A stretch of DNA of 64,000 nucleotides. It comes from Saccostrea cucullata (Eukaryota). Shown here piece after piece: positions 114 through 56,035 of this stretch. The notes under the pieces are model-generated. The model saw only the letters and a program-made list of their open reading frames with translations, was not told the DNA's origin and did not search any database. Location of the stretch: the NCBI RefSeq assembly GCF_032062105.1, contig NW_026933720.1:372001-436000 (forward strand), written 5' to 3'. The translations under genes were made by a program, and so were the position numbers. How positions within the stretch are numbered: the first letter of the stretch is position 1; each line of letters starts with the position of its first letter.

Positions 114-3100
114 ATATTCGGGTTGATGTTAATTCTTCCCGGAATCCTAATTCTGGCAAACATTGAATACATCGATGAGAAAGTCAAACCTCTAATGAAG
201 ACGCTGTCTTACGGTGACGTCAATCTGGCTGACGTAGCAGACGGTCTCTCTATCTCCATGATTATCCTGGGAACCTTCACGCTCCTGGTGGCTACTCTAG
301 GATTGTGTGGAGCCTGCAAATCAAACAAGAAATGTCTCTGTGTGGTCAGTTCTATTACAGTATATCCAGTTATATATATGTACCAATAACAAGTTAAATG
401 AACATGCAAGAATCAGTTATACGTCATTAATATGAATTAAAACGTTTAAACATCTGAAAATAATGTGTTAGTGTACTTAATTAACTTGATGGGACTTCTG
501 TTTTTCTTTTTAGTACTCGATAATAGTACTCACTCTTCTGGTGTTACAATTGGTCGGAGTGGCGCTCTGGGCAGTTGCCAATGATAAGGTAACTTACATG
601 TGCTTAATTTGCATTGTTTTCTTTGACAAAAAAGTAGATATTTCTTGCGATGAAAGTAACGGATTTTGGAATTTATTCATGCAGAATGTATATAACCACC
701 ATGACTTTTTTATGTTTAAGGTGACCAACTCCATTAAAAGTGAACTACTCAACAACCTACAGACTCACTACACAAAGGAAGATCTATCAAGCCATGAAAT
801 CTCTACGGCCTGGAACTATCTTTTCATGAAGGTATCGACATACAAAAACACCGCCAAATAGTTTTCAAATCAAACTTATTTAGGGCGGCTTTAATCTTAA
901 TGATAAATTTCTTTGATGATACTTACCAATGTCAAAAAATGTTTACATGAGAGAAATTTCAGCAGTACTGTGCAACAATATATTAAACAAAAATGGTATA
1001 AATCAGATACGTAAAAATTTCAAGGAACTTTTGGAAAATTTGAAATTAAATTTTTCTTACTAAAACCAGTAACATAAAAACTTACACGACTTTTCAACTC
1101 TACAATGTATAGAACAATATTACACGATGAATTCAAGTCCAGGCTTGTAAAATATGAAATAATAAATATCCTAATTATATTCAATAAATATAAAAGATGA
1201 GTCTGATTGATGCTATCTATTTGGTTATTGGAGATAAGGTTTTCCAATAATCTGTAAGAATTCCCATGGGTACTAATTGCGTCTCGTAATAGGCAGACTA
1301 TTCTGGTATTTATACGAAGCAAACTTTATGCAAAATCTTACATATAGGAAGAGGAAAACAATTGTTATGGCATTCAACTCATTAGATATATATCGACGAC
1401 GTATGATAAATAAACAGTAGTTACTTCCATTTATATGTCGACATGATATATCCCAGTGAGCTTGACATTGATGTAACCACAGAGTCTGACACATCTGTTT
1501 TATATTTGAATATTTTACTTCAAAAAGACATAATGGTAATCTTACAAGAAATTTTCATGATAAATATGATGACCAACTTTGCAATCGTCAACTTAAATTA
1601 TTGACGAAAAAGTTTATATAATGGGAATATTAACAGCATATCTTGTCAGCAGATACAACCTATCCTTAAGGACGTTCGATCCTGATATTTTGAGCGTATT
1701 TCGCGCAGGTCATTTATTCATAAAATTAAGCATCATTTTTAGGTTCTAACAATAAAACTGAATTGTACAATGCAAATTAAACTAAATTCAATGAAAAAAC
1801 CGCGATTAAATTCCATTCAAGTAGAATTAAGCTAGGGACTATATTTTGTGGCGGAAGGTTTTTTAGACGAAAATCATCAGTTTTTTCCATTTGAACTATA
1901 ACAGTACTGTTAATTTTGGATGCCTATTTTTCCATGCTGGTTGCACACAAAGCTGTTTTTTGCAGTGAAATATGCTATGCTGGTTCTGAAATATGTATTA
2001 AATTATTTCTTATGAATTCTATCAACAAAGTGTGACAAATATAGTAAATATATTCTGAAAATCCGGGAAAAAATTGAGTCAATTTTAACGTAAATTTTTA
2101 CACTTTTTTAGTAATATTTGAAAATTAAGATCATATACCCCTACTTTTGATGTTCTTTTCTAAATATTTAAGATAACTTTGACCTATATGCTTAAAATCA
2201 GAAAAAGTTTAAGACTTTAAAATAGTTTTCTTGCTTATTATATTTTCAATGCCGGGAAAAAAAACATTTTATTAGTGCAGAAAGGTCAAATAATTGATTA
2301 TGCGAAGCAATTTGAAACTTTATCTTAGTCACAATTTTTAAGTGTCTTTTTTTTAAACAGACTTAGACTTCATTTTGTTTCATGCTTTAATTGCATAAAA
2401 ATATCGAAGGGAAAACGTCGAAGATGTAATTTTTAATTAAGACACAAATTTCAGTGCAGAAAGGTCATATTAAATGTACTGTAGCGCTAAAAGAAGCATA
2501 TTGACCCCCATTTTTTGATTTGAATTTCAATTAAGCTATGTTTGTAGAAACTAAAAATATACTTGGCAAAAAAAGTTTAAGACTTTAAATATCAGGATCG
2601 AACGTCGTTAGGTCACATTTGAACTTACGTTTAATTTTCTTATCAATAGTTATGCCATTAGTTACACATTAATTCCGTTATTTCCCGATCATGACAAGTA
2701 GCACACGGCGGGAGTGACCGGTCAGCAGGGGGATGCTCACTCCTCCATGGCACCTAATCCCACCTCTGATGTTTTAGAGGTCTGTGTTAGCTAAGCTCCT
2801 GTTTTGTTTTGTTCCAATGGACTTTTGAGCTTGAATACCGTTTGTTATCTCCATATATTTCATTACATATGAAACGGTATTATTTTCCTTTTTGTAAACC
2901 TTTTTTTGGTAATGATTGAAGGTTCCTTAATTAACCTTTCGTTTAAAATGTGTTTTTAACGATTTCAATTCAAATACAAAAATTCAAACTACTAGTAATT
3001 TCTTTCAATTTTGCAAAATAGCTGTCTTGTTGCGGTGTCAATGATAATCAGAACACGACAAACGACTTCACAAACACCCCGTGGAAAACCTCCTCAGCTG

Positions 3101-4016
3101 GTACAAAGAAAGTCCCCATCTTTTGCTGTACCGGGATCAACACCAACAACTATAACCTCATCCTCTTCACGTCATGCACGGATGACGTGTATAAAGGCTT
3201 TTACAATACAGTAAGTTCAGGAACATAGATATAGCTCAAAGTTTTATCTTAAATTTCATAATCAAATTTGGTGTCAGAAATTATAATCCAAATCCCTGAC
3301 TAAATTGACTGAAGTACGTTTTTATCAATAACAGGGTTGTTACAGTGCTGTAGAAAAGGCCATATCTACCTATACTTTGTACTTCATCGCTACCGGATGT
3401 ATCATCTTAGGCGTAGAGGTAAAGTAACTCAGGACTATTGAAAGAGATATCCAATCAGTCTGTTAGGTCTTTGTTTTTAAACCGAATTTGACGAGGAAAT
3501 GTTCCATCTAGCTGATCAAAACATAGGGTTCACGGCGGAGGTGACCGTTCAAGAGGGGATGCTTACCTCTCTGAGGCACCTGATTCCACGTCTAGAATTC
3601 CTTCCGTATTTTATGCCCTTTTGACAGATTTTGTTTTGTTTTTACTTTTTTGAGATCGATTACTATGTGTTATCTTCACCCTTTCTCATCCTTCTAACCA
3701 CTCTGGCAAGTTGCAGAGGTTGGTCATACTTAAAAGTTAAGCGTTCCTGGTTTTCATTGAGATATTTACTCTGATTGACAAATGGTATTTACGCTGCTTG
3801 ACAAATGGAGTTTTGTAATTTTCCATCATTTTCAAAAAAAAAATTGTAGTGATATACAAACTGACCAAATAAATGATAAAAACATTTATATCATTATATT
3901 GCAAAAAGTTATGGCGTTTATTTCAGATTATTGGTCTCGTGTGCGCATGCTGTTTGTGTAAAAACATTGGAAAGAAAAAGCAGGAAGTTTCCCCCCGTAA
4001 AAAGAAGAAAAAATAA
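114..4016 (+). CDS. Tetraspanin paralog A (first coding exon lies upstream of the window). Exons 114-344, 514-588, 721-831, 3022-3210, 3335-3418, 3927-4016
   Basis: GT-AG exons join in frame: TM1/TM2 (IFGLMLILPG...LGLCGACKSNKKCLCV), TM3 (YSIIVLTLLVLQ), EC2 with CCG (LSCCGVN), PIFCC, C, GCY, then TM4 and tail IIGLVCACCLCKNIGKKKQEVSPRKKKKK*. AATAAA near 4194. Confidence 0.93.
905..2860 (+). mobile_element. Degenerate Naiad-type Penelope-like retroelement fragment (RT plus 3' end) in intron of tetraspanin A
   Basis: Decayed homology to the RT copies at 17010-18120 and 23530-24305 (GIPMG, FRYIDD, IYP.EL regions) and the shared 3' motif at ~2699-2860; interrupted by a MITE. Confidence 0.7.
1670..2607. 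mobile_element. Kolobok-like MITE
   Basis: TIRs ggacgttcgatcctgatattt / aaatatcaggatcgaacgtcg; flanked by TTAA on the left and TTAG on the right. Confidence 0.7.
3524..3688 (+). mobile_element. Solo 3'-end motif of a Naiad-like element
   Basis: cacggcggaggtgaccg...ggggatgcttacc...ggcacctgattccac is homologous to 2699-2860 and 24146-24305. Confidence 0.65.
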
Positions 4017-5895: not shown

Positions 5896-7494
5896 AACCA
5901 GAAGTGTCTGTCGAGACTGAAGCTCTACTGGTTTGCACTTAAAGCAAATGAAGAAAAAAGTACTTAGGCAGTTGGGAATTGAATCTTTACAACAGCAATA
6001 AATAGAATAATATCCTTGATTATAAGTCTCTTTATGTTCTTAGTTAAGTCTACTTGCATGCCACATTATATTATAATCAGACTAAAACTGCATCTGGAGT
6101 AGCATTTGAGAGTATTTAACAGAAATTTCTATTTTTAGTAACCACGGCAACACCGTTCATAGAAATCAAAAACCGATATACAGAATTATGTATCTTAGTG
6201 TAGTCTACTTGTGTGCCAAGTTATATTGCAATCAGACAAAAACTGTAGGAGACGTAGCATTTTGAAAGAATTTCACAGAAATTTCTATTTTTAGTAACCA
6301 CGGCAACACCGTTAATCGAAATCAAAAACCGAAAAGCAGAATTATGTATCTTAGTATAGTCTACTTGTGTGCCAAGTTATATTGAAATCAGACCAGAACT
6401 GTAGGAAATGTAGCATTTTGAAAGAATTTCACAGAAATTTCTATTTTTAGTAACCACGGCAACACCGTTCATCGAAATCAAAAACTGATACACAGAATTA
6501 TGTATCTAAGTGTAGTCTACGTGTGTGCCAAATTATATTATTATACCTCTACTGATTTTTCACTATATAAAAGTAAATCGATATATTTTGCTGATTTCCT
6601 TAAAATCACCGTAAATAAACCGATTCCCTGCAAAACAGACCGATTCCCTGCAAAAAAAGTACGTTTTTTTGATGAAGTGATACACACCTATTCGGAACGC
6701 TTGACATTTTCTTTCAACTCACGACAAACTTAAAAATGTTCCGAATAAACTCATGAATATTCATTAGTGAATCGAAATGCATCGCGATACAACTGGTCCC
6801 AAATCAATCAAAAAGAACCAGTTTACTTGAAGCGAACAACAACAGAAATGGCGTGCTCAATTTTGCGTAATGTTACTTTCGATTTTACTAGGTAAAAACT
6901 CGGACAATGAACTGATTTATTGATAAAATGGAATTCCTTTCATGACTGTATTCTGTTTTTGTCGTTTTTTTCCCTTAATTTTTTCATTTTTTTAAACATT
7001 GTTACTGAATACAGTATTGAATATAATTTTTTTCAAATGTCTTGTTTGTATCGGTATAATAAAACAGTTAAAGTATATCATTTCGGGAGTCAGCAAGATT
7101 CCAGTTCCCTTGAGCAAGCCTATTTCCCTCGGCGCAAGCGCCTCGGGAAATAGACTGCTCTTGGGGAACTGGAATCTTGCTGACTCCCTCAACGATATAC
7201 TTTAACTGTATACTGAAATCAGACGAAAACTGTAGGAGGAGTAGCATTTTGAAAGAATTTCACAGAAATTTCTATTTTTAGTAACCACGGTAGCACAGTT
7301 CATCGAAATCAAAAACCGATATACAGAATTATGTATCTTAGTGTAGTCTACTTGCGTGCCAAGTTATACTGAAATCAGACAAAAACTGTAGGGGGAGTAG
7401 CATTTTGAAGAAATGTTTACAGACAGACGGACGGACGCCGGACGCATTACTGTCGCATAAGCTCTTCTGGTCTCTGACCAGTAGAGCTAAAAAT
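5896..7494 (-). mobile_element. Helentron-associated HINE/DINE-1-like element with central 156-bp tandem repeats
   Basis: 156-bp monomers starting at 6121, 6277, 6433 and resuming ~7210-7410; GACA/GACG microsatellite at ~7420-7445; terminal hairpin agctcttctggtc..gaccagtagagct followed by an A-run. Confidence 0.7.
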
Positions 7495-8959: not shown

Positions 8960-10012
8960 CAGGTCTTCCAACAATCTATTGGAATTCCCATGGGTACCAA
9001 TTGCGCCTTGTTTTAGCAGACCTATTTTTGCATTCATATGAAGCAGAATTTGTTCAAAATCTTATGTGTGAAAAGAAGAAAACACTTCCTCTGGCCTTCA
9101 ACTCGACATTCAGATATATCGACGACGCATTGTCAATTACCAATGGTAATTTCCATTCCTATGTCGATAAGATATATCCTGGTGAGCTTGAGATAAAAGA
9201 CATAAAAGATACCACAGAGTCTGACACATCTGTTTCATACTTGAAAAAGACGTTATTGGTAATCTAACAACCAAGCTCTATGACTTTAACTTTTCTATCG
9301 TCAACTACCCATACTTATGCAGCAACATACCGTTATGACACCTGCATGCGGAATTTTTACACTGACACTCAAAAGAAAAGCAACACCCTAATTTTAGGGT
9401 GAAAATTATATACGGGATATAACCATGTACCAAAAAAGTTAGGACATCTTTAACTTTGCCAAATCAGTTATTTAACGGTTGAATGATTTTCATCCATTAC
9501 CGCAAGTTGACTTTTAGCCCTCTTAACAGAAAACAAAAATAAGCATTTTAAATAAAATTATTGACAATATTTTGGGGTTTCAAGGTTTTGTAGCTGTTAA
9601 TCATTAGTATTGTACTAAAATGCCGGGAAAAAAATTCTTCTATCTTTTTCCGTATGTGATTTCCTCAAAATGACTGAAAGCACGCATTTTCATTGCTGGA
9701 AATTCTCAAAATAAGAAAAAGGAGAGCTGCAGATGCAAATATATACTACATAGCGACTTTTCGGACTCATGTATTTCAAATGCATGAATGACAGTTCCTT
9801 GACCGGAAGTCCAAGGGTTACTACACAACACAAAGTTAGAGAAAATTCGACCTCAGTATCTGAAAAACAGGCATTTAAAAATGCCCAAGAATATTTGTTT
9901 CGCTCAGATTAAGACATCCATAAACCTATTGCATGGTAGAAATCGGGCTGCATTTGTTGTACATGGCGGACTAGCACGTATAATTGATTTCATTGTGTTG
10001 GAAAATAACCAG

Positions 10013-11976: not shown

Positions 11977-14900
11977 ATGGGATGCTTTGATTCCTTAGGA
12001 TATATCTACCTTGTAATTGTTAATGGACTATTTATGGTAAGTATTGCGTTTTTTCCCTAGATTTCCTTTTCTCTTGAACATCTTTTTTTAAAATTCTTAT
12101 TAGGCCTTAATTAATCTAAGTCTGCTGCGATTCTCAATAAAATTCCAAGAGACCACAATTTTTAAGTGATGTCATTTTGAATGCGTGGAATCAAGGGCGA
12201 GGGACATTTTAGCGAAATTGCCAAAGGTGTGAATGGACAATTTAGCGTAAAATTTATAGGACAATTTAGCTAAAGAAAAACAGTTACCTGCGAAAAAGAT
12301 TTTTTAAGAAGTTAAATTTAAATTTTCTTTAGAGATTCAATGTGAAGTGAGCAAATATTGACCAATTAACTGCAAAGTGATTACAAACTCTTACGGAAGC
12401 TCCAATGGAACAGATAAAACAAACTCGACCCTAATATACTCAGGAAAGTACACGAGAACATGATAGAACTTCTAAAATACTTTTAATGAAATAAAACCCT
12501 TTAAAGAGATGTTCAATAAGAATAACTTGTTTTTTTTTTTTCGAACTAGAATTATTCTTAGACCATTCTCATTGTTCCTGTTGATGAGCATTGGTTAACG
12601 AAAGAGAAAGATGCACGTATATATTTCTGATTTTTTTGCAAAAGTGTTCGCTCAAATTTTGCTAAAATTTCCTTTAAATCTTTCATTAAACCTTCAAATT
12701 GTCGCGCTGCAGGTTGCACAACAGTATTACATTCTGCTATATATTCTTACCAAAAAATGCGCAAGTTTGAGTAGATGTGATTAATTTAAAACAAACTTCT
12801 GGGAAGTTTCCTTTTCAGACCTTGTAAAACCATTCTTTATAAAGATTTTAGTACCAAAAAATACATAGCCATCCAGCAAGGCACGCAAGTTTGTCTCGGT
12901 CGAAGCAGGTGCTTGAAAATCTAGTCCATGGCCTAATCACTCCCCACTCTTGACAGTATAAAGAAAAATCAGCACGCCCTAAATTTTAATAAATCTTTTA
13001 AATACATGAAGTTTACATGTTGTTTTTCATCTCATAAAAAATTCAGCTCCAGTCTCGTATCAAAATGCCCGAATCGGAAGGGAAAATTCCGGGATTATTT
13101 TCATGGCGTAAGCCATGATTTGACATGAACCCGAGTGAAATAATGTTATGACACCTGTAATTTGTGAATTTCATTGAATTAAGAAATTTAGGAATTGCAA
13201 AAGAAAACCTTGATGTGTAATTATGGAGCTTTCAGTTATTTTAAATTTGAGTGTGGAGACAAACCGCCGTCTTTAAAATTGAAATCAAACGCCACACTTG
13301 TATTGCCATCTCTCCCACCCCCTCATTATCCTGTACACTATTCATATTTTGTTACAGTTATTTGCCATTCTGTTGATCGTCCCGGGGGCTGTGATGCTGG
13401 CAGACATCACATACGTGAATGAGAAAGTGGTTCCGCTGATGAAAACCATGTCAGTGGGGAGCTTTAACGCGGCGGACCTCGCCGACGGGCTGGCCATTAC
13501 TATGGTGGTCATAGGGGGTCTCATCCTCGTCATAGCCACCCTGGGGATCTGTGGCGCCTGCAAGAAAGCCAAGGGTTGTCTCTGTGTGGTGAGGTCCTTT
13601 GTTTAATTAAAAAAAATTCTATAGTTAAAATAAAGGCTGATTATTTGCTTTTGGTGACATTAAGTTTATAAATTTAATAATTATTTCATCATTCCTATAT
13701 TTAGTATTCCCTCATTGTGTTGAGTCTGCTGGTTGGTAAAGTCATCGTTGTGGTCCTGTGGGTTTTGATGAATGCAGAGGTAAGTACTTCAAAATTTATG
13801 CACATTACGGTATTTAAGGAAACATTCATGTTTTAAAGAGTAAACACAATTGACATAATCTTGTTATATCAAAATTATAACTTGTTTACAGTTAGATTAG
13901 CATTATTGCTTTCAAGACTTAGAAATGTTGTTTAAAGGTTTTTTAAAGCTTGAATCGTGCAATATTACGAAACCTCGAGATTTACGTACCTGATGATGTC
14001 TACACAGATTTAATTTGATATAACATTACATGTTGTATTTTTATTGACAGGTACAGTCGTACTTAAAATCTCAGTTGTTGTCCCAGCTAACGAATAAATA
14101 CTCGGCGGACGACCTAACAACGGACGAGATATCCACAGCATTCAACTTCCTGTTTATGACGGTAATGCAGCATCAATAATAAAAAAAATTAATAAGAGGT
14201 TTACATTAAAACATTCTTTATTCTAAAAATTATGTTTTCAAATATATATGAGCATACATTATGTCTTGTACATATCGATGTATTAACTGTTTGGTATGGA
14301 CGTTTAAAAAAAAGAATTATTCCTAAGTTGCTGAAACCTAAAATCAATGTTAAAAGAAAAGTTAAACCCGTTTTATAAATTATCGTGCATTTTTAGCTGG
14401 AGTGCTGCGCAGTAAACGCAGTGACGGGACAAACAAACGATTTTGACAACACCCCTTGGATAGCTGGAGCCGGAAGTAAACACATTCCCATCTTTTGCTG
14501 TTCCGGTATAGACGCCAATTCTGCTGGCGCCACCTACACGGCCTGTACAGACAACGTGAGTGCGGGTTACTACAGCATTGTAAGTCTTGGTGATATCTTT
14601 CTTCCGATAAATAATTAATATTTGATAGCTTACCATATGGACTGAGTGGGTGCAACTGTCAGATTAAAAATCAACAACCTCTGTCTCTCAGGACGTTGCA
14701 CATGACTGGTTGAAGATATTATCGTCATGCAATATTTACATTATTCCTTGAGTGTAGTCGACTTACCCTTTACAGTTTTCTATTTTATGTCGAGCAAAGC
14801 TCCTGATTTTGATCATTCAAATGAAAGGATTCTATGGAAAATTCTCTCCCTTATACCATCCAAATGTAAAATATGAAAGTGACTGACATATATCTCATAG

Positions 14901-15671
14901 TCGTTAACTTTGATTCGACCCTGAAATTTTAATAAAAGTCAACTTATTTGATCCTGTTTCATATTTATTTGTTATAACAGGCACGTAGCATCGTTTTTGA
15001 AAGGGGGGGGCAACCATAGAAAAAAAAATTTCTTTACTTACCTGTAAAAGTTGACAAGCAAAAAAAAAAAAAGAAGAAATTTGGCCAAACTCGAAAATCC
15101 AAGTAGCCAACTTTTTAGTGGCCCCCCTGCCCCCCCCCCCCCCCGTTGCTACGTCCCTGTATATAAGGTAAACGGCAATCAAATCAAATTGCTGGGTGTA
15201 TGTTCGATCCTGTTACATGTAAACCGTATGTATCGTTTGAGAGTTTGATTAAAGATTCCCACTCAGTTTTTAAGGCACCTAACATTTCGTAATTTAAATT
15301 TCATATGAAAACGGTTTATTTGTAACTTTTTCTAAAGGCTTTATTGGCAGTATAACCTTGCACATGTCCATTCTTTTTCAGGGCTGCTACGACGCTTTTT
15401 ATAATCTTATTATGAAATACTCGATCTACTACATTGCCGTTGGAGTAACAATACTTATAGTCGAGGTAAGATTTGATTTGAAATAAAACTGCAATGTTAA
15501 TTAAAATAATATACATGCAGGTTAATGAAGACGTCTTTGATATCTATAAATTGTATATGAATTATTGGTTTTATCTTAGAAACAATTTTTTTCTTTTTTC
15601 AGGTCCTAGGGGTTATATTTGCCTGCTGTATGTGCAAAAAAATCGGCAAGACGGAAAACGGAAAAGTTTAA
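11977..15671 (+). CDS. Tetraspanin paralog B. Exons 11977-12036, 13358-13588, 13705-13779, 14051-14161, 14397-14579, 15382-15465, 15603-15671
   Basis: Starts MGCFDSLGYIYLVIVNGLFM; exon sizes 231/75/111/183/84 match paralogs; EC2 LECCAVN...PIFCC...GCY; tail VLGVIFACCMCKKIGKTENGKV*. Confidence 0.93.
14978..15159. mobile_element. Small G/C-tract MITE in intron of tetraspanin B
   Basis: TIR caggcacgtagcatcg / cgttgctacgtccctg with subterminal poly-G and poly-C tracts. Confidence 0.55.
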
Positions 15672-16225: not shown

Positions 16226-19200
16226 CTACACCATTTTGGCAGCTCCGGATAATCCCGTTCCGTCCTCGCCTCCGTTCTTTATGATTATAATGGCCCCAAC
16301 GAACGCAACAATCTGCAGGACAAAAATTATCAAATTTATATTTTCAGTATTTTGTCTACCTCAACAAATGATAAAAGCAAAAAGACAACAACAAATATTC
16401 AAAAAAGTAAAATTTCAACCCTAGTGATAAGGAACACCCCAAATTAAACTCTAACATGATAAATAAACTTAACTTGACCTTTGACCTTTTCAGCTCAAAA
16501 ACAGTAGCTATGTCTTTTTAGGCTATGCATACGGGGTTGTGATAAAACATTTTATTTATAAAATCTCGGAGAAAACTTAAGATATAATCTGGAAACTGTT
16601 ATTTGCATTGTATGAGTTTATTACCTTAACCTTTGATTTTGATCTCAGTACCAAATGGGGTATTGTTTAGGCCATAAGTTTGGACTCTGAAGTGTTACAC
16701 ACTGTCAGATAGTGTTAATTTCTGACCTACATCTTTGACCTCAAAGTCAATACAGATCTTACTATTGAGTTGTGATCAAATATCATTGCAAAAGCTCGGC
16801 TTTCTGAGATATCGTCATGAAATGAAAGTGTTACACACAGTGCAAGAGTAAAAAATTAATAGCAAGCTTTGTTATGATGAATAATAATAATCCTGTTCAC
16901 AATATCGTTTCATATTTCCCCCATGTTTTTGTAATTTGAAGTTGAAGAAATTGACAGCCTTAGAACTTAACACTTCTTCTCTTTAGAAATCGTTAATTCA
17001 ATGTATAAGTAATGAATTAACAATTAGTATTAAAAAAGTCAGTCAGCATTTGACTTGATAAATTGTATTTGCTGACTTTCACATGGTCATTGTATCGACC
17101 ATAGAACTTACGAAATGATGACTTTAAACGAGACTGCTGATATTCTTCAACTTGCATGCTTGTCAATAATTTACCTCGTTTTAGAATTTGTTCATATGTA
17201 GAGCATGCTCTTGTGTATCGAATCAACTGAGATATATACACTCCGTATGCAGGTGATGAAGGTTAAATATTGCTGCATAAGTAAGGGAAGTTGACGATAG
17301 AAAAGTTAAAGCCATCACGTTTATCATAAAGCTTGGTTGTTAGATTACCATTAGTGTCTTTTTCAAGTAAAATATCCAAGTATGAAACAGATGAGTCAGA
17401 CTCAGTGGTATCTTTTATCTCAAGCTCTCCAGGATATATCGTATCGATGTAGGAATGGAAATTACCATGATTGTTAATTGACAATACGTCGTCGATATAT
17501 CTAAATATCGAGTTGAAGGATACAGCAAGTTTTTTTCTTCTTTTCATGCATAAGATTTTGCACAAATTTTGCTTCAAATGAATACAAAAATAGGTCTGTT
17601 AATTACAAGTGCAATTGGTACCCATGGGAATTCCAATAGATTTGTTGGAAGACCTGGTCTCCAAAAACCACATGGATATTGTCAATCAAAAACTCAAGCA
17701 TCTTTTTGAGGTCAACTTCAGAGTACTTGTGTGTGCAATCAGAATGTGTTTTAATAAAATAAGTAAACTTACGAGTTCCATTTTTATTGAAAAACAGCTG
17801 TTAATGATATCAAAAAGCCTTGACTTTAATTTATCGTGGGGAATGATTGTGTATAAAGTTGAAAAGTCGTAAGTTTTTAAGCTGTTGATTTTGGTAAAAT
17901 CTTGTGATTTCAAATTATCCAAAAGTTCCTTGGAATTTTTGAGTATCCACATCTGATTTACAACACTTCGTCAGTGTATATATTGTTGCACAGTGCTCTT
18001 GGAAGTTTCTTCTTCACCACTGTTAATATCTTAGTGAGAAGTAAAGAAAGATGCTTGATTGAACATTTATTGGAACCCGCTACGTATCTTTGTAAGAATT
18101 CTTATGAAGTTTCGGAATCTATTATACATGTAGTTCAAAATGATTTTAATTCTTTGGTATATTAAATTATTTCTTATCCTGATAGGATAAAGATCCCGAT
18201 CTAACTCTTATCTCGACAGGATAAAAATACCGATCTAATTCTTACCTCGACTAACAGGGTAAATATCCTGATCTAATTCTTACCTCTACTAACAGGTTAA
18301 ATATCCTGATCTAATTCTTACCTCGACTAACAGGGTAAATATCCTGATCTAATTCTTACCTCGACTAACAGGGTAAATATCCTGATCTAATTCTTACCTC
18401 GACTAACAGGGTAGATATCCTGATCTAATTCTTACCTCTACTAACAGGGTAAATATCCTGATCTAATTCTTACCTCTACTAACAGGGTAAATATCCTGAT
18501 CTAATTCTTACCTCGACTAACAGGTTAAATATCCTGATCTAATTCTTACCTCGACTAACAGGGTAAATATCCTGATCTAATTCTTACCTCGACTAACAGG
18601 GTAGATATCCTGATCTAATTCTTACCTCGACTAACAGGGTAGATATCCTGATCTAATTCTTACCTCTACTAACAGGGTAAATATCCTGATCTTATTCTTA
18701 CCTCGACTAACAGGTTAAATATCCTGACCTAATTCTTACCTCTACTAACAGGGTAAATATCCTGATCTAATTCTTACCTCGACTAACAGGGTAGATATCC
18801 TGATCTAATTCTTACCTCGACTAACAGCGTTAAAACTCCGACGACAATAAACGCCGTGCTATAACTGCTGAGGGCATCATACGTGGCATCATAACAACCC
18901 TAAAATTCGTATGAAATTCAACTATATAAAAATACATGAAAATATGAATAAAATTTAACATAAATTTAAAAAAATTGCAGTTTGAGGTTGTATTTAAAGA
19001 ATATCTTAAAATTCAATCTCTTACTTAATGGTCATGACCACCAAGGCATCTTAATGTTAGAGTTCACGCACATGTATAAAAATCTCATTCTTAAAAGGGC
19101 TTTCTAATAAAGAAAATAAAATCAAAGAGACTTACTTTAGTGTGGTAGCCTGATGTGACGGTAGTTGTGCATGCAGTGTTAGTCGTTGAGGCGTAATTGG

Positions 19201-19416
19201 AGGCTGTGACTCCAGTACAGCAGAATATCGGGATTTCTTTACCTCCGTTATTGCCTCCAGTGATCCACGCCGAACTATCAAAGTCATTTGTTGTTCCGGT
19301 TACTGCAGTGACGCCACAACAGGAGAGCTGTAGTAAAAATGAAAAGTGTTCTGTTAACCACACTCACACGTACACCCTCACCCATACCCTTACCCTCACC
19401 CCACCCACCGCCACCC

Positions 19417-19447
<31 letters not shown>

Positions 19448-21779
19448 ACAGAAAGAGAGAAATACTTACAGACATGAACATATAGTTCCAAGCAGTTGAA
19501 ATTTCATGCGTTGTCAAGTCGTCCTTTTGATAGTTGGTCTGAAGTTGCTTTAAAAGTTCCGTTTTCATCCAACTTTGGATCTGAATGCATCAATAAAACC
19601 AACAAATGTGAATTACATTCATTTTCACGATTAATACTTCATTATTTCAATACTTCATTTATTTTCATTTCTGATTGATTATTTTAACACCTTGTCGTTC
19701 ATAACAATCCACAAAATAACAACCACCAGCTTAGCCAGGAAGAACACCAGCACTACAATGGCATACTGCAAAGAAAATCACGACAACCAACATTAACTTC
19801 ATCAACGATACTAAAACATAAATAAAGAATTTGATTGTTTTGTCAGATTAATTTCCAGATATATCTGAATGAGAACCTCAACAGAGATAATACAAGCTGA
19901 GGATGAAAGTTGAGAAACCCACAACACTTGACGTTACATATTTTTATCATTCAAAAAATATAACCCCATTAAAATGTGACAAGTGCCTGTGGGGTAACCT
20001 GTGGAAAACTCACAATGATGAGGCAGCACTTCTGCTGACAGAAGGCCCCGCAACAGCCTAGTGTTGAGACAATGAGGACAAAGGCGCCAAAAACGATCAA
20101 GGTCACAGACAGATTTTTGGCCAGGTCCCCAACGTTTAACGCACCGAATGACAGCTGTTGTAGCAGGGGCAATACTTCATCATTGATGACATCAACATCA
20201 GCAAGCATCAAAATTCCTGGAATAAGGATTCCAAGCCCGAGCAACTAAAAATTAAAGATGATGTACTGTCCTTAAGATCCATGTATATGGTAGGCTAGTT
20301 GATTAAAAGGTAAAGGTATTTCAAAATGTATACATGTATTTGATAATGAATTGAATGGAGAACTACAAGAATCCCTGTCTTGATATGGGAATTGGGTTTT
20401 TAGTCCCCTACATACTGATGAAACCGGATGGAACTATAGTTCTCCTTCGAGTTTTTTAGTTGTCTTTCTCTCTGTCAGTCTGTCCCACTTCGTTTTCCGC
20501 ACTTTTTTTCTAAACGCTCAAGCAGATAAGCTGATTTCTGGTATATGACTGTATCTTGATGAGTTACGATCAAGTTTGCATTGCTGATTTTTGACGGAAT
20601 TATGGTATTTTTAATTTTTCATAAGAGGGTACATAATAGTTTGCTTGTGCAAAACTCTCTTATTTTTTATGGCCTTTGTAATTAATTTGGAACTCGAATG
20701 AATTCAAATATAAGTGTATGCAACATATGATTTCATCCATACTGTCTCTAGATTACTGAAATGAACCACTGATATATGGAGATAATTTTTTTTTGTCTGA
20801 GCAACTTTAAATCTATTAATTCGTTTTCCGTTCACTTTAATGAATATTTTTGAATATATTTGTTGTTAAGGTGTCCTTCTCGAGAATTTTTTCTTTCATG
20901 TGGAGACGCCAACACTTGCCGATGGAGAGCTGCAAGTTTTGTCCTATTCTCGGCACTCGGGGCCATTGAGCAGTGAGGGATCTTTTTCGTACCAGCATCT
21001 ACTGCGACGTGCGACCTCGGTTATACAGTCTCATCCGAAGGACCGGTATCCATGTCCCCAAAGTGGTATTCGAACCCGCGAAGTAAGGATAAATTCTTTA
21101 CCCCGTGAGTCTAGAGCAGACGTTCTACCACTTTAAAAAGTGGGAGTTGAAAATCAGCATAGATAGATAAAACCAAAGATGAATGAAGTAATTCTCAACC
21201 ATCATTAAAGCAATCACAGGTTATTTTTAGTATTGACATTATTATGTTAAAGAACTAAATTAAAGACTAAAATATTTTTTTATATAAATTTCAATTTGTC
21301 CAATACTTAATACTTCCTGTAAGCAATACCACTGGTTATAAATGGTAAAAATGCCAGTGTTAGTTTAACTCCATGGATTGAATGATAAATAATAAATCAA
21401 TATACCACTGAACAGGAAAATCTATTATGCCGAATTTGGACTTTAAATTAGACGAACCAAAACAAACGTGATCTTATGCTATATCAGTTTGTAAGACAGA
21501 GGATTTCAAAATCTCAGGCCCATCGTAAGGTCAATGAACACTGAGATTTAAATAAGAATTGTACACCTTTTCATTAAAATGAAGTGTGGACGATTAGAAA
21601 GACATACTGAAATCTAAATACCCCCACGACCCCATATGTGTTCAAACATTTTGTTTTTCAAAAACCATTCGAAGCACACGACCTATAAGGAGTGTACAAC
21701 AAATATACAGTACCATAAATATTAGGTTGATGACCACTAAGAAAAATTTGACACATTTTCCTCCGCAAGACAGCGCCAT
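16226..21779 (-). CDS. Tetraspanin paralog C. Exons 21779-21714, 20244-20014, 19765-19691, 19580-19470, 19327-19136, 18899-18816, 16312-16226
   Basis: Starts MALSCGGKCVKFFLVVINLIFM; LGCCGAF; EC2 LSCCGV...PIFCC...GCY; tail IVAFVGAIIIIKNGGEDGTGLSGAAKMV*. All junctions are GT-AG and in frame. Confidence 0.93.
17010..18120 (-). mobile_element. Naiad-type Penelope-like RT fragment in last intron of tetraspanin C
   Basis: Frameshifted RT: MWILKNSKELL, YDFSTLYTIIPHDKLK, GIPMG, FRYIDDVLSINN, KLYDKRD, YISQLIRY, FRKFYGRY; no C-terminal GIY-YIG. Confidence 0.85.
18170..18828. repeat. 38-bp minisatellite overlapping the exon 6/intron 6 junction of tetraspanin C
   Basis: Unit tcctgatctaattcttacctcgactaacagggtaaata; cttacc recurs every 38 bp from 18241 to 18811 (16 times), plus 2 degenerate units. 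Confidence 0.95.
20861..21133 (-). mobile_element. tRNA-derived SINE (Deu/Nin-like core)
   Basis: Reverse-complement homolog of 45205-45485: B box ggttcgaatacc, core cttcggatgagac..aaccgaggtc..aaagatccc. Confidence 0.75.
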
Positions 21780-23529: not shown

Positions 23530-24305
23530 AGAAAATCTTATGCATTAAAGAAGAAAAAAAGAAAAGAAGAAAACACTTACTGTGGCCTTCAACGCGACAT
23601 TTAGATATATCGACGACTTATTGTCAATTAACAATGGTAATTTCCATTTCTACGTCGATACGACATATCTTGGTGAGCTTGAGATAAAAGATACCACAGA
23701 GTCTGACACATCTGTTTCTTACTTGGATATTTTACTTGAGAAAGACGTTAATGGTAATCTAACAACCAAACTATATGATGAACATGGTGACTTTAACTTT
23801 TCCATCGTCAGCTTCACTTACCTATGAAGCAATATACCTTCATCACCTGCATTCGGAGTATATATACCGGTATCTCAGTTGATTCGATACGCAAGAGCAT
23901 ACTCTACGTATGAACAATTTCTAAAATGAGGTAAATTATTGACAAGCAAGTTGATGAAACAAGAATATCAGCAGTCTCCTTTAAAGTCATCATTTCGCAA
24001 GTTCTATGGTCGATACAGTGACCTTGTCAGCAAATACAATTTATCATTGAGTTAAATGCTGACAGACGTTTTCATACTAATTGTTAGTCCATTATTTATA
24101 CACTGAGTGACGACGGATTTTTCCGTTATTTCCTGATCATGGCAAGGAGCACACGGCGGGTGTGACCGGTCAGCAGGGGATGCTCACTCCTCCATGGCAC
24201 CTGATCCCACCTCTGATGTTTCGGAGGTCCTGTTTGCTCTGCTCCTATTTTGTATTGTTTTATGGACTTTGAGATCGAATACTGTTCGTTATCTCCATAT
24301 CCTTC
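23530..24305 (+). mobile_element. 5'-truncated Naiad-type Penelope-like element with complete 3' end
   Basis: AFNATFRYIDDLLSINN...ELEIKDTTES...FRKFYGRY followed by the conserved 3' motif at 24146-24305. Confidence 0.85.
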
Positions 24306-32296: not shown

Positions 32297-35200
32297 CTAC
32301 ACCATTTTGGCGGCTCCGGATAAACTCTTTCCGTCCTCGCCTCCTTGCTTTATAATTACAATGGACCCAATAAATGCAACAAGCTGGAAGACAAAGAGTA
32401 ATTTGAATGCGTTAATTTAAGTTCAAGAAATACTTGGTGTAAAAATTGATAAATCCACTATTTTCTGAAATTTGTTTATCAACGTTTTAATCGGTATTTA
32501 GAAGCGCCTAGAACTGTCGGTTCTAAAAATTATGTTTATGGAATTATTCAGTGCAGTTTTTGATGCCATCACCTATGACGTATTATCCAATAAAATATAT
32601 TGAATATGAATAATTGAAATTTAATATGGATAAAATCTGTACAACACTTCTCTTGGATAAATTATAAAGTTGTAATATTTTTTGTGATAGGCACGCATTA
32701 TAATAGAAACTGAAGAGTGCCAACAACCAATTTTATTAATACGATGTCTTGTGATTAGATCGCTGACCATATCTGTAGATAGTGCTCTTTATATAATAAC
32801 TGTAAAACCAGAACATAAATATAAAATACTTAAGTCTACGAGTGACAATGAGCAAACTATTCCCTAATGCACTTGGAATTGTGTGTCTGGACAATTTCAG
32901 CTAAAAGATAATACACAATGTAAATTCTAATTTATTAAAGATGAATCTAGTTTACAAAAGTGACATTGGGACAGGAAAATGAATGAGAAGGCAAAGTAAA
33001 ATAATTTGCTTTTTTTTTAAATAATAAAAATCACTATGCATTGTACATGCTTTAGTCCCTTTGCAACTTTTCAATCCTCTTTGACAACCGGGAAAACCTC
33101 GGAATTTTTTTTCATTTGAAGAACAAAAACCCAAACGAAATGTCTAGTTGAGCCTCAATTGTCGTCAACTAGCAGTCATTCAGTCGTCAACTGAGAACTT
33201 GGAAACAATTGACTTCTAGGAAAAGAATGCTCTTCTGTAAAATGTCAACCATTTTTACCTAAAATGATCAGTTGACTATCAAGTGACTGCTAACTTCTTC
33301 AAAAATTTATGCAAGAAAAGATTTGTCCATTGTTGAACTCTCCAACTTTGTTAAATCTTGCAGACTTGACTCTAGTTGATCAGTCAGTGTTAGAAAATCT
33401 CGCTGACTCTATTTACATGTATATATGTTGGGTTTGAAATGACAGTATTATGGATTAGGTTTGCAATTCATAATTCTTTCAACAAGCTACATTTGAATTA
33501 AGTAACATTTTATAGTATGTGTTCTGTTTGAAAGAATGTGAAGAAGTTTGAATTCGAAAAAAAAAAATATTATGACTGATTCAGCTTTAGCAATGTATGT
33601 AAGTAGAAAATTTAATGACTTTTCTTATTATAAGAAATATGACTCGCGCCGGGGTCACATGATTCGTGGATGGGCAGAACGGTGCATTAAAATCGAAGAT
33701 GACTACTTTAGTTTAGATATAAAATGGAAGTATTAAAAATACAATTCGCTCGCGAAATATTTTATTACACCTCGTACGTATACATGCAATACTTTTAATT
33801 ATAAATACATCTCATGTATATCTGAAGAATGCATTCGAAGTTTTTCCCCCGTAGTTTGTCAAAGAGGTTAAAAAGTTTTCCTCATCCAACGTGCAGACAA
33901 TGACCATGACCACATAATACCTATTTGGTCTGCTCCTTTTGTTCTTCAGCACGTGACTGACCTACTTTGTAGATCAGAATAATTCCCGCCAAAATCGACA
34001 ACAACTACAAGTCACATACATAAAACTTGCTCTTCAGATTGAGATCATAAAGTTCTACATATACCTGTATACCTACTTTTATTTATAATTACGTCTTTAG
34101 CATATAAAGTAAGTGATAAAGAACGCATGTATAAACATTTGTTTCTTTCTTATGATCCAAGTTTTCAAACATTGTTTTTATTTTCTGCTAATCTCAGCCT
34201 TCTGACTGTTTTGTCGATTAGATATATTAGGTGTATCTTTAAGAAATGAAAGCTGATGGGTTTTTTGTCTCCGAAATGCCCATGCTTACCTCTACCAGTA
34301 AAATACAGATTCCAGTTGCCATGAATACCGTACTGTATGTGTCCAGTAAACTATAGGTGGCGTCATAACAACCCTGAAAATATCGAACCAAATAAATACA
34401 CACCAGTCTGTTTTGTCTCATTTCTTTTGCCCTATACATGTACATCATAGATGGTGTCTGTATTAGCTGATAATGTACAAAGTTTTACGGCATGCTTATG
34501 CTTTTCAGACAAGTCCCTCCAAGGAAAATGATATCTTAAAGGTGTATAACAAAACGTTTATCCTTTGGTTGTGAGTTGTATATTTCTTTGATCAAGAACC
34601 AAACTCCAAAGCTTGCCCGAAAGGAAGTAATTTCTGTTAAATGTTCGCTCATGGTGGAATTCATATGCTAGTACATGTATTGCTCAATGGTTTAACTTAG
34701 GTTATTTTATTTAATTTTGTATTACCTTGGTGTAATAACCTGATGCGACAGTGTCCGTGCACGCACTGTTGGAGTAGGTGGCGTAATTTGAGGCGGTGAC
34801 CCCTGAACAACAGAATGTTGGAATTTCCTTACTTCCGGCACTTCCAATCCATACCGAGTTGTCAAAGTCATTTGTCGTTCCGGTTACTGCATTGACGCCA
34901 CAACAGGAGAGCTGTAGTGATATGTATATTTTGTTCACAACATGTACTAAGGAAGAGATAATTCAAAGGGAGATGATAGAGAGGACACTTACAGTCATAA
35001 ACATATAGTTCCATGCCGTAGAGATTTCCTCTGAAGTCAGATCGTTATATTTATAGTTCGTCTCGAGTTGGCTAAGCAGTTCTGTTTTCATCCAACTCTG
35101 GATCTGAATACAAGAGAAAAATATTTTTGAACACTTTAAAAACTGCATCTTAGACTATTCTTTGTATATGTTTTATATGTAAGAGCGAAATTTACCTTAT

Positions 35201-36115
35201 CGTTCATGACAAACCACAATATGACAACCACCAGCTTAGCCAGGAAGAACACCAAAACGAGAGCGGCATACTAAAAAAAACAATGTCCTTCTACTTTTGT
35301 AATGATGTACTAAACACTTGAAGGAAAAAAAAACTACTCTCAGCACATAGGTAGCCAGAAGTTGTAATATGAACGCAATGAAAACTACTCACAACGACGA
35401 GGCACAGTCTTTGTTGACACATTGCACCACAGCAACCCAGCATCGACACGATGAGGACGAATGAACCAAAGATTATCAGGGTCAAGGACAGACCCTTGGC
35501 AAGGTCACCCACATTTAGCGCACCGAATGACAACTGCTTCAGCAAGGGGAGTATGTTATCATTGATGACGTCAACATCAACCAACATAAGAATTCCTGGT
35601 ATTAGGATGCCGAGTCCGAGCAACTATAAAAGTATCACGTGATTTATTATTTTGTGAGGGTTATGGCAATAAAGGTGCTTGTACTAGTCTTGTTAGTAAA
35701 ATACCCTACTTATATGAAGCGACAACTTCAAAATGCTGTTTTTTTTCTATTCAATAGAGAATGAAGAATTGGGATCATAACCGATAAAGAGGTTTAGAGG
35801 ATATCAAATATAAACATGATCATCCGTGTAATTAACTGACGTCTGTCAATGAATTTGAATTTTACTTCTTTCTTTGTGGATTTCATATGAAGATATTTGA
35901 AAATAGCAATCAAACGACTCTTGTGTCCTAATTATACATATATTAATGTTCATGTATTAAAGGTATATTTTATTTATATTTATCGTACACAATCCTGTTC
36001 AAACTTAATCCCATTGAAATGTTGTATCAACAAAGTAAACATACAGTACCATAAAGATCGTGTTGACAACAATCAGGAACAACTTCATACATTTTCCTCC
36101 GCAAGATAACGCCAT
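32297..36115 (-). CDS. Tetraspanin paralog D. Exons 36115-36050, 35623-35393, 35270-35196, 35103-34993, 34911-34726, 34373-34290, then final coding exon 32383-32297 (or alternative 34004-33921)
   Basis: Starts MALSCGGKCMKLFLIVVNTIFM; close paralog of C; EC2 LSCCGV...PTFCC...GCY; distal last exon LVAFIGSIVIIKQGGEDGKSLSGAAKMV*. Confidence 0.93.
33921..34004 (-). CDS. Candidate alternative final coding exon of tetraspanin D
   Basis: ttgtag acceptor, phase 0, encodes LLSILAGIILIYKVGQSRAEEQKEQTK* (hydrophobic TM4 half plus tail); the stop TAG is followed directly by a GT donor-like site. Confidence 0.65.
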   Translation of the reverse strand: MLSILAGIILIYKVGQSRAEEQKEQTK

Positions 36116-38742: not shown

Positions 38743-39192
38743 GAGGATAAAGCCAGACGGAAGTCATGACGAAATATATACTGACTTGTCACGGGGAGAG
38801 TTGAGCCCCACAGAGCGAGGACAGAGAAAACCAGATAAAGCCAGACGGAAGTCATGACGAACTGACTGAAGTCACGAGGAGAAGTATGAAAGCCCCACAG
38901 AGAGAGGACAGGAAAACCAGGAATAAAGCCAAAGGAAGTCATGACGAACTGACTTGTCACGGGGAGAGTTAGCCCCACAGAGCGAGGACAGAGAAAACCA
39001 GGATAAAGCCAGACGGAAGTCATGACGAACTGACTTGTCACGGGGAGAGTTAGCCCCACAGAGCGAGGACAGAGAAAACCAGGATAAAGCCAGACGGAAG
39101 TCATGACGAACTGACTTGTCACGGGAAGAGTTAGCCCCACAGAGAGAGGACAGAGAAAACCAGGATAAAGCCAGACGGAAGTCATGACGAAC
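38743..39192. repeat. 81-bp minisatellite, about 5.5 copies
   Basis: Unit ggataaagccagacggaagtcatgacgaactgacttgtcacggggagagttagccccacagagcgaggacagagaaaacca (39001 to 39082). Confidence 0.92.
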
Positions 39193-39693
39193 TCAAGTGT
39201 TTAATTCTTTGTTGGACAACTATGTGGGTGGTTCCGGTTTGTCACAAAAGTCATCAATGGTGTAAAAGTATACCCTAGTTCCGTAAAACATTTGTGACAT
39301 CACATTCAGATACTATTACACATGTATTTGAAGATTTTCGGTAATGTTTAAAGGTTGCCAATAACAACAAAAGTACTGTTTGACTGTACTTAATGAATGG
39401 TCACTTCGTCGTGTCACGTGATCAATGGATTCATGACTTCTGATTTCAAAATGATGTAAACAAATCCATTACATTTGCCCTTGTCGAGAATTTGATGGCA
39501 TGGTCAAGATAAAATTGCTTGTTTAATACGTGGGGTGGGGGCTTTTCTATATAATGTTTATAAACAATTTCGGTTCAATTCTCAGCAGATTAAATAGCGG
39601 TAGATAGGAAGAGAATGCATTATAAGTGCCGGGACGTATTCACAGCAAAATTGTCGTGTTAATCAAAGGAATATTTCACTAAAATACTCAATT

Positions 39694-55024: not shown

Positions 55025-56035
55025 ATGTTATTTTTTCAATTTACTTGTTTAATCTGCTGTATGAGTTTTAAGTCGGATGCGGAAATTGGGCCGCTCCGCA
55101 TGTAGAGTGTTATTTTTTCAATTAACCTGTTTATAATCTCATGTGTGAGTTTTAAGTCGGATGTGGAAATTTGGCCGCTCAGCATGTAGAGTGTTATTTT
55201 TTCAATATACCTGTTTATAATCTCATGTAAAGTGTTATTTTTCAATTTACCTGTTTATAATCTCATGTAAAGTGTTATTTTTCAATTTACCTGTTTATAA
55301 TCTCATGTGGGAGTTTTAAGTAGAATGCGGAAATTGGGCCACTCCGCATGTAGAGTGTTATTTTTCAATATACCTGTTTATAATCTCATGTAAAGTATTA
55401 TTTTTCAATTTACCTGTTTATAATCTCATGTAGAGTGTTATTTTTCAATATACCTGTTTATAATCTCATGTGTGAGTTTTAAGTCGGATGCGGAAATTGG
55501 GCCGCTCCGCATGTAGAGTGTTATTTTTTTCAATATACCTGTTTATAATCTCATGTGTGAGTTTTAAGTCGGATGCGGAAATTGGGCCGCTCCGCATGTA
55601 GAGTGTTATTTTTTTCAATATACCTGTTTATAGTCTCATGTGTGAGTTTTAAGTCGGATGCGGAAATTGGGCCGCTCCGCATGTAGACTGTTATTTTTTT
55701 CAATATACCTGTTTATAATCTGCTGTGTGAGTTTTAAGTCGGATGCGGAAATTGGGCCTCTCCGCATGTAGAGTGTTATTTTTCAATATACCTGTTTATA
55801 ATCCCATGTAGAGTGTTATTTTTCAATATATCTGTTTATAATCTCATGTGTGAGTTTTAAGTCGGATGCGGAAATTGGGCCACTCCGCATGTAGAGTATC
55901 ATTTTTCAATTTACCTGTTTATAATCTCTTGTGTGAGTTTTAAGTCGGATGCGGAAATTGGGCCGCTCCGCAGGTAGAGTGTTATTTTTTTCAATATACC
56001 TGTTTATAATTTCATGTGTGAGATTTATGTCGGGT
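55025..56035. repeat. Two-subunit tandem array (~40-bp A plus ~43-bp B)
   Basis: A = tagagtgttatttttcaatatacctgtttataatctcatg; B = tgtgagttttaagtcggatgcggaaattgggccgctccgcatg; irregular AB/AAB/AAAB order. Confidence 0.92.

What the first reader, a model, noticed from the sequence alone, without database searches (positions are those of the whole stretch)
18170..18828. Minisatellite made of a tetraspanin splice donor: 16 tandem exon-end/5' splice sites
Seen: on the gene strand the 38-bp unit reads tatttaccctgttagtcgag|GTAAGAattagatcagga. It contains the last 12 nt of coding exon 6 plus the real donor (18815), so 15 extra donors follow the true one. Each unit also has a pyrimidine tract+AG 5 nt before the GT, a microexon- or recursive-splice-like layout. 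Reading past the true donor gives VRIRSGYLPC then TAG, so any downstream donor yields a protein lacking half of TM4 and the tail, or an NMD target. Paralog D lacks the array. Inference: copy number could tune productive splicing.
Basis: partly seen in the sequence, partly recalled or inferred. Interest (0 to 1): 0.7.

Follow-up and report, generated by a model that had tools for sequence, protein, structure and literature searches.

The report
Splice-donor minisatellite in oyster tetraspanin
The end of an exon and its splice signal in a rock-oyster tetraspanin gene are repeated 16 times in one gene copy and 54 times in another, but the RNA examined shows only the first signal in use, so this is likely a tolerated repeat of a kind already known from human and lancelet genes.

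Summary
The array is real: 16 identical GAG|GTAAGA donors at 38-nt steps behind exon 6 of a 281-aa tetraspanin. A second, colinear contig of the same genome has 54 units. DNA runs under two other organism codes hold related units, including a 42-nt variant, so an assembly artefact is unlikely. Any later donor would give a 263-aa truncated protein. The RNA shows only the first donor: 25 raw reads in X22 and spliced contigs X5 and X7 join 18816 to exon 7. Depth leaves room for about 1-2 read-through reads in 56. The 'acceptor' in each unit is copied coding sequence, and hairpin masking failed shuffle controls. This matches the human F7 intron-7 VNTR (PMC1557585) and amphioxus 'mirages' (PMC3087553). 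The scan has noted the same kind on other DNA (58 notes in at least 28 genomes, two in this genome). An effect of array length on expression is untested and unsupported. Verdict: ordinary new member of a known kind.

The parts
18184..18827 (-). 38-nt minisatellite whose first unit spans the exon 6 / intron 6 boundary
   Evidence: TRF period 38, 17.1 copies, 94% matches; unit listing
18810..18818 (-). Authentic 5' splice site GAG|GTAAGA; exon ends at 18816, intron starts at 18815
   Evidence: 25 loose-end reads in X22 and contigs X5, X7 continue from 18816 into exon 7; 9 of 11 matches to the U1-pairing consensus
18240..18780 (-). 15 further donors identical from -3 to +6 (GT at 18777 ... 18245); no use detected
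   Evidence: depth residual
18170..18245 (-). Two degenerate 34-nt distal units whose GT has become AT (18211, 18177); likely an older round of the same duplication
   Evidence: same two units end the 54-unit copy
18816..18899 (-). Coding exon 6, 84 nt, end of large loop and first half of TM4
   Evidence: RNA depth and contigs
16226..16312 (-). Coding part of exon 7 (last exon; acceptor before 16312): rest of TM4, tail and stop
   Evidence: loose-end consensus equals its first 30 bases
16226..21779 (-). Tetraspanin gene C, 7 coding exons (21779-21714, 20244-20014, 19765-19691, 19580-19470, 19327-19136, 18899-18816, 16312-16226), 281 aa
   Evidence: Pfam PF00335 on exon 2, E 1.2e-8, 35.3 bits against cut-off 32.1; relatives named tetraspanin-9-like in Saccostrea and Ostrea

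Best explanation
This is a locus-specific, length-variable minisatellite made from the gene's own exon 6 end and splice donor, and it is likely near-neutral because the spliceosome uses the first donor in all RNA examined and likely ignores the identical copies behind it. Origin (inferred): an early duplication of the junction left two now-decayed 34-nt copies, and likeness between the exon end and the first of these seeded slippage or unequal exchange that built 38-nt (in another lineage 42-nt) units. Silence (inferred from the F7 experiments): the 84-nt exon is defined between its acceptor and the first strong donor met in the 5' to 3' direction, so later donors are probably functional but outcompeted by position, not masked by structure or weakened by mutation.
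For: Shown: 16 and 54 units in two colinear contigs, 94-98% alike in the blocks listed over about 43 kb. The unit core occurs only at these two places (48 of 48 hits). X22 has 25 reads with a loose end at 18816 equal to exon 7, agreement 0.99. Depth over the bin holding the first two units is explained by the exon part alone in 3 of 3 raw RNA runs (2.08/11.64/10.95 observed against 2.02/11.45/10.66). 2 of 2 spliced contigs laid (X5, exon 6 identical to the window; X7) join exons 5-6-7 and none lies on the array. 0 of 26 proteins fetched hold the read-through tail, and the 4 members of this gene's cluster are all 281 aa. Extra donors are not weakened: 15 of 15 and 49 of 53 keep GT. Paralogs A, B and D have the same intron position without an array. 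Precedent: in F7 only the most upstream donor is used, and later ones switch on one at a time when earlier ones are mutated (PMC1557585).
Against: RNA depth is low (about 56 reads at the junction over three runs). The raw reads come from 'organism A', with 4 fixed differences in exon 6, and from animals whose array length is unknown. The loose-end table was cut (334 rows not shown), so rows at 18778 could be hidden. Contigs drop rare isoforms. Products of donors 4 and later could be removed by decay. In human 6-16 and CBS two further donors are used (PMC1557585 introduction). The array seems to persist across divergent lineages with donors intact, which neutrality allows but does not require.
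Confidence: 0.8

Rival explanations
1. Leaky rheostat: a fraction of transcripts uses later donors or skips exon 6, this fraction grows with unit number, and long alleles make less full-length tetraspanin.
For: Length varies more than threefold. All donors are strong, 9 of 11 U1 matches, the best of the gene's six donors. In ABCA7, whose 25-bp VNTR includes the exon 18 donor, length correlates with lower expression and with exon 19 skipping (PMC5954066 passages). A residual of 1-2 reads in 56 is not excluded.
Against: No read-through or later-donor junction was listed. Donor 2 and 3 products should escape junction-dependent decay and yet are not seen above a few percent. In ABCA7 the one-unit retention itself did not change with VNTR size.
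Confidence: 0.12
2. Self-masking units: the pyrimidine run 11 nt upstream of each extra donor pairs with it in a hairpin, which the real donor lacks, and this keeps the copies silent.
For: Predicted accessibility of the 9-nt site is 0.125 for the real donor against a mean of 0.013 for the 15 copies.
Against: Shuffled units bury the donor as well or better in 153 of 200 arrays (84% of 150 with another unit variant). The one-unit hairpin is -5.5 kcal/mol against -4.6 +/- 2.0 for shuffles, and 30% of 1000 reach it. Four of seven other real donors computed (gene C e2, e4, e5; paralog D e1) are less accessible (0.004-0.011) than the copies' mean.
Confidence: 0.04
3. Microexon or recursive-splicing device: each unit's AG and GT define 5-nt microexons or ratchet points that are used during removal of intron 6.
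For: Each unit has a 10-of-13 pyrimidine run, AG, 5 nt, then GT (sequence). Five units of the 54-unit copy read CAG|GT.
Against: The same AG lies inside real exon 6 as coding sequence. Three other AGs lie just upstream in each unit and I saw no branch-point-like motif on the gene strand (by eye). The intron is 2.5 kb, far shorter than introns known to use recursive sites (recalled). The X22 junction reads go straight to exon 7, agreement 0.99.
Confidence: 0.02
4. Assembly artefact: the array, or its length, is a product of assembly.
For: No long reads were laid, and exact copy numbers rest on one assembly.
Against: The two contigs carry different unit mixtures (9 and 27 types, 5 shared) with the same first unit and the same distal decayed units. 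Unit-bearing contigs occur in independent DNA runs X2 and X10.
Confidence: 0.02

Closest known systems
Human F7 intron 7 37-bp VNTR (Borensztajn et al. 2006, PMC1557585; read: abstract, Introduction, first Results section, Discussion)
   Same: First unit spans the exon-intron boundary; unit of nearly the same length (37 versus 38); identical donors repeated; copy number varies; only the most upstream donor is seen in use.
   Different: F7 has 5-9 units holding 4 exon bases. This array has 16 or 54 units holding about 23 exon-derived bases. Function of the spare donors was shown by mutation in F7 and is untested here.
Amphioxus 'mirage' minisatellites (Adh3, globins BflGb6 and BflGb9; PMC3087553, passages of abstract and section 16)
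   Same: Tandem copies of an exon-intron boundary in an invertebrate; haplotypes differ in unit number; edge units escape homogenisation; normal splicing reported as unaffected.
   Different: Different phylum and gene; globin units are 150-160 bp. The original Adh3 paper was not read.
Human 6-16 (IFI6), CBS intron 13, LMNB2 and PDGF minisatellites (as summarised in the Introduction of PMC1557585; primary papers not read)
   Same: 10-25 repeated donors behind the real one; LMNB2 and PDGF use only the real donor.
   Different: 6-16 and CBS also use two further donors; no such use was detected here, at low depth.
ABCA7 intron 18 VNTR (De Roeck et al. 2018, PMC5954066; 12 passages read)
   Same: Unit includes the donor; use of the second donor gives a frameshift and early stop; wide length range.
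   Different: There a length effect on expression and on skipping of the next exon is measured. Here none is shown, and the next exon is the last one.

Membership tests
Exon-intron boundary minisatellite (F7-type, 'mirage') | Head-to-tail array whose first unit spans the exon-intron junction | tested here: met
Exon-intron boundary minisatellite (F7-type, 'mirage') | Splice-site sequence repeated in the following units | tested here: met
   16 of 16 GAG|GTAAGA in the window; 50 of 54 keep GT in C13143
Exon-intron boundary minisatellite (F7-type, 'mirage') | Unit number differs between haplotypes | tested here: met
   16 versus 54 in colinear contigs; that C13143 is an allele and not a recent segmental copy is inferred
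Exon-intron boundary minisatellite (F7-type, 'mirage') | Normal splicing at the most upstream donor dominates | tested here: met
   low depth, and the RNA animals' arrays were not genotyped
Exon-intron boundary minisatellite (F7-type, 'mirage') | Spare donors are functional when the first is mutated | not testable with these tools
   needs a minigene; shown for F7 only
Length-dependent splicing or expression VNTR (ABCA7-type) | Isoform ratio or expression correlates with array length | not testable with these tools
   no matched genotype and RNA
Length-dependent splicing or expression VNTR (ABCA7-type) | Transcripts that keep one or more units are detectable | tested here: inconclusive
   none listed; residual of about 1-2 reads in 56; loose-end table cut
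Recursive splice sites / microexons | YAG|GT with its own tract and branch point in a long intron, with intermediate junction reads | tested here: not met
   GAG|GT in 16 of 16 units, 2.5-kb intron, no such junction listed; defining features recalled
Tetraspanin family (Pfam PF00335) | Profile match above the curated cut-off | tested here: met
   exon 2 alone: 35.3 bits against 32.1; exon 5 alone gave no tetraspanin hit in the same call; full-length relatives carry PF00335

The most novel reading that the evidence does not exclude
The array has been kept with intact donors across divergent rock-oyster lineages while its unit turned over (38 versus 42 nt) because it acts as a heritable dial: long alleles divert some transcripts to later donors and decay, or soak up U1, and so lower the level of this tetraspanin.
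Probability: 0.08. Interest if true: 0.55.

Novelty: new member of a known kind. Interest (0 to 1): 0.2.

Why it matters
It is one more natural case showing that 15 to about 50 perfect spare donors can sit behind a real one without visible harm, which extends the 'first donor wins' rule from mammals and lancelets to a mollusc. The 16-unit and 54-unit copies in one assembly would make a convenient allele-specific test of whether array length matters. It does not reveal a new mechanism. It would matter more only if length were shown to set tetraspanin levels.

Tried and rejected
Hairpin masking of the spare donors: failed shuffle controls. Origin from a dispersed repeat or transposon: DNA and pattern searches of the own genome hit only the two contigs with this gene; the DNA search skips very common words, so the exact-pattern searches carry the weight. 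Scan of metagenome contigs for a 31-nt unit pattern: 0 matches. Search for a truncated protein with the read-through tail: 0 of 26 proteins fetched hold it; this is weak, because clusters show one representative and rare isoforms are seldom on record. X5 and X7 have no contig on the array, which shows no absence. No lay covered units 3-16 or exon 7 itself, so joints from the far donors were not counted directly. Paper searches without a hit: (tetraspanin + oyster + intron + minisatellite: 0). One search gave one paper (PMC12855859), useful only for its ABCA7 reference. These searches cover open papers only, so 'this locus is not described' holds only that far. No supplements were opened.

Full report
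Observation. Tandem Repeats Finder reports one array at 18184-18827 with period 38, 17.1 copies and 94% matches. On the - strand there are 16 donors, at 18815, 18777 and so on to 18245, followed by two 34-nt units with AT in place of GT at 18211 and 18177. All 16 read GAG|GTAAGA. The last 12 exon bases are copied exactly, and the likeness reaches 20 of 24 bases with one gap (my count on the alignment). The unit is therefore about 23 nt of exon end plus 15 nt of intron start.

Gene. Seven exons with GT-AG ends, all in phase 0, give 281 aa (my first edges were off and were corrected). Exon 2 matches Pfam Tetraspanin above its cut-off, while exon 5 alone did not. The nearest named proteins are tetraspanin-9-like of Saccostrea and Ostrea, so the genome is of a rock oyster. 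Three paralogs lie in the window. All have the same intron after the Val-Glu codons and none has an array. Each of five later donors tried gives the same 263-aa product ending VRIRSGYLPC. The stop ends 5, 43, 81 and 119 nt before the last junction for donors 2 to 5. By the mammalian 50-55-nt rule (recalled; untested in molluscs) only donors 4 and later would trigger decay.

Variation. Contig G000:C13143 is colinear with the window's contig over about 43 kb, with listed blocks at 94-98% identity and different insertions. I read it as the other haplotype; a recent segmental copy is not excluded. Its array has 54 units: 44 GAG|GTAAGA, 5 CAG|GTAAGA, 1 GAA|GTAAGA, and 4 without GT. The two arrays have 9 and 27 unit types with 5 shared, and the same first unit and distal decayed units. 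An 18-nt core occurs 48 times in the genome, only on these two contigs, and a pattern for the 34-nt unit occurs twice, once on each. In DNA run X2 (organism A), short high-depth contigs carry the unit; the loose ends show a variant with 4 more bases, and the exon 6 contig ends 39 bases into the intron. In X10 (organism C) a 68-nt contig covers the unit with 3 differences and the exon 6 contig stops 15 bases into the intron. The array is thus likely shared by lineages whose exon 6 differs from the window at about 5 of 84 bases. Contig depth is no copy number.

RNA. Eight of 24 listed runs were laid, on stretches holding exon 6 and the first two units. In raw RNA run X22, 25 reads have a loose end at 18816 whose consensus is the start of exon 7, agreement 0.99. 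The table was cut (334 rows hidden), so the same row for X21 and X23, and any row at 18778, could not be seen. Mean depth in the bin 18745-18860 was 2.08, 11.64 and 10.95, against 2.02, 11.45 and 10.66 expected from the exon part alone. The summed residual equals about 1 read if it covered all 71 array bases, or about 2 if it covered only the first 28 (hand calculation), out of 56 reads at 18819. That is within the error of the interpolation. These animals differ from the window at 4 exon 6 positions in all reads and their arrays are not genotyped. Runs X5 and X7 are labelled DNA by guess but give spliced contigs: an 1810-nt contig with exon 6 identical to the window, and a 155-nt contig, both joining exon 5, exon 6 and exon 7 at the first donor. 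All 4 members of the protein cluster are 281 aa. P0005 has the Ile seen in exon 6 of the 54-unit contig, so a full-length model exists for that copy too. None of 26 fetched proteins has the read-through tail.

Why the first donor. The copies are not weaker: the site matches 9 of 11 positions of the U1-pairing consensus (consensus recalled), the best of the gene's six donors. I tested masking by RNA structure, because each unit holds a short run complementary to its own donor. The real donor is predicted more open (0.125) than the copies (mean 0.013). But shuffled units bury the donor as well or better in 153 of 200 arrays, and the real donor is the more open one in 133 of 200. The single hairpin is unremarkable (30% of 1000 shuffles reach it), and several real donors are predicted less open than the copies. 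Position is left as the likely cause. In F7 minigenes the spare donors are functional, yet only the most upstream intact one is used, and no masking structure was found (PMC1557585). Applying this to the oyster is inference.

Origin (inferred). The distal 34-nt units align with the 38-nt unit apart from a 4-base gap and have lost GT. They look like an older duplication of the same junction. Likeness between the exon end and the first of them would seed slippage or unequal exchange. Homogeneous inner units with decayed edge units are what PMC3087553 describes for amphioxus mirages. The acceptor-like AG and T-rich run are simply the copied hydrophobic codons of TM4.

Comparison. The array meets the tested features of exon-intron boundary minisatellites: F7, 6-16, CBS, LMNB2 and PDGF as listed in PMC1557585, and amphioxus mirages. 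ABCA7 shows that such a VNTR can affect expression and exon skipping, but there the one-unit retention did not change with length (PMC5954066). A search for tetraspanin, oyster, intron and minisatellite together found no paper. Earlier notes of this scan hold 58 findings with my search words in at least 28 genomes, and at least two of the same kind in this genome. They are unchecked AI notes; I took from them only the lead to PMC3087553, which I read in passages.

Verdict. The feature is real, variable in length and locus-specific. It is most likely a tolerated minisatellite in which the first donor wins (0.8). A length-dependent leak is possible but unsupported (0.12). New member of a known kind; interest 0.2.

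Noticed in passing
window 114-3421 (+), 13325-15468 (+), 16226-21779 (-), 32300-36115 (-): Cluster of four tetraspanin paralogs with a shared intron after the Val-Glu codons of TM4; the ends of the first two were not mapped.
   Followed up: partly
window about 17017-17970 (-), inside intron 6: Broken reverse-transcriptase-like element in several frames, with a YIDD motif; related pieces match at about 1200-1590, 8960-9350, 23560-24100 and 49170-49320. A Penelope-like assignment is recalled, not tested.
   Followed up: partly
window 18165-18245 (-): The two decayed 34-nt units fold into a long hairpin; the last 111 nt of the array give -26.6 kcal/mol (no shuffle control). It might have favoured slippage.
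   Followed up: no
G000:C13143 39395-41409; window 18245-18815: A C-to-A unit variant (5 of 15 and 19 of 53 units) spells TACTAAC on the opposite strand, and a T-to-C variant in 5 of 53 units resembles the U1 5' end (both motifs recalled). Probably chance.
   Followed up: partly
window 18816-18899, runs X5, X7, X2: X5 and X7 carry one sample label but different exon 6 alleles; the three X7 changes are shared with organism A DNA, so the organism codes may share alleles or be mislabelled.
   Followed up: no
window 38780-39193, 44158-44921, 55026-56033, 6032-6539: Other tandem arrays with periods 81, 166, 40/85/170 and 156; not checked against exon boundaries.
   Followed up: no
protein P0019: A pearl-oyster tetraspanin model runs on past the matching donor (LLVE then VRVI...) and ends early; likely a gene-model error, but it shows the intron position is old.
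   Followed up: no
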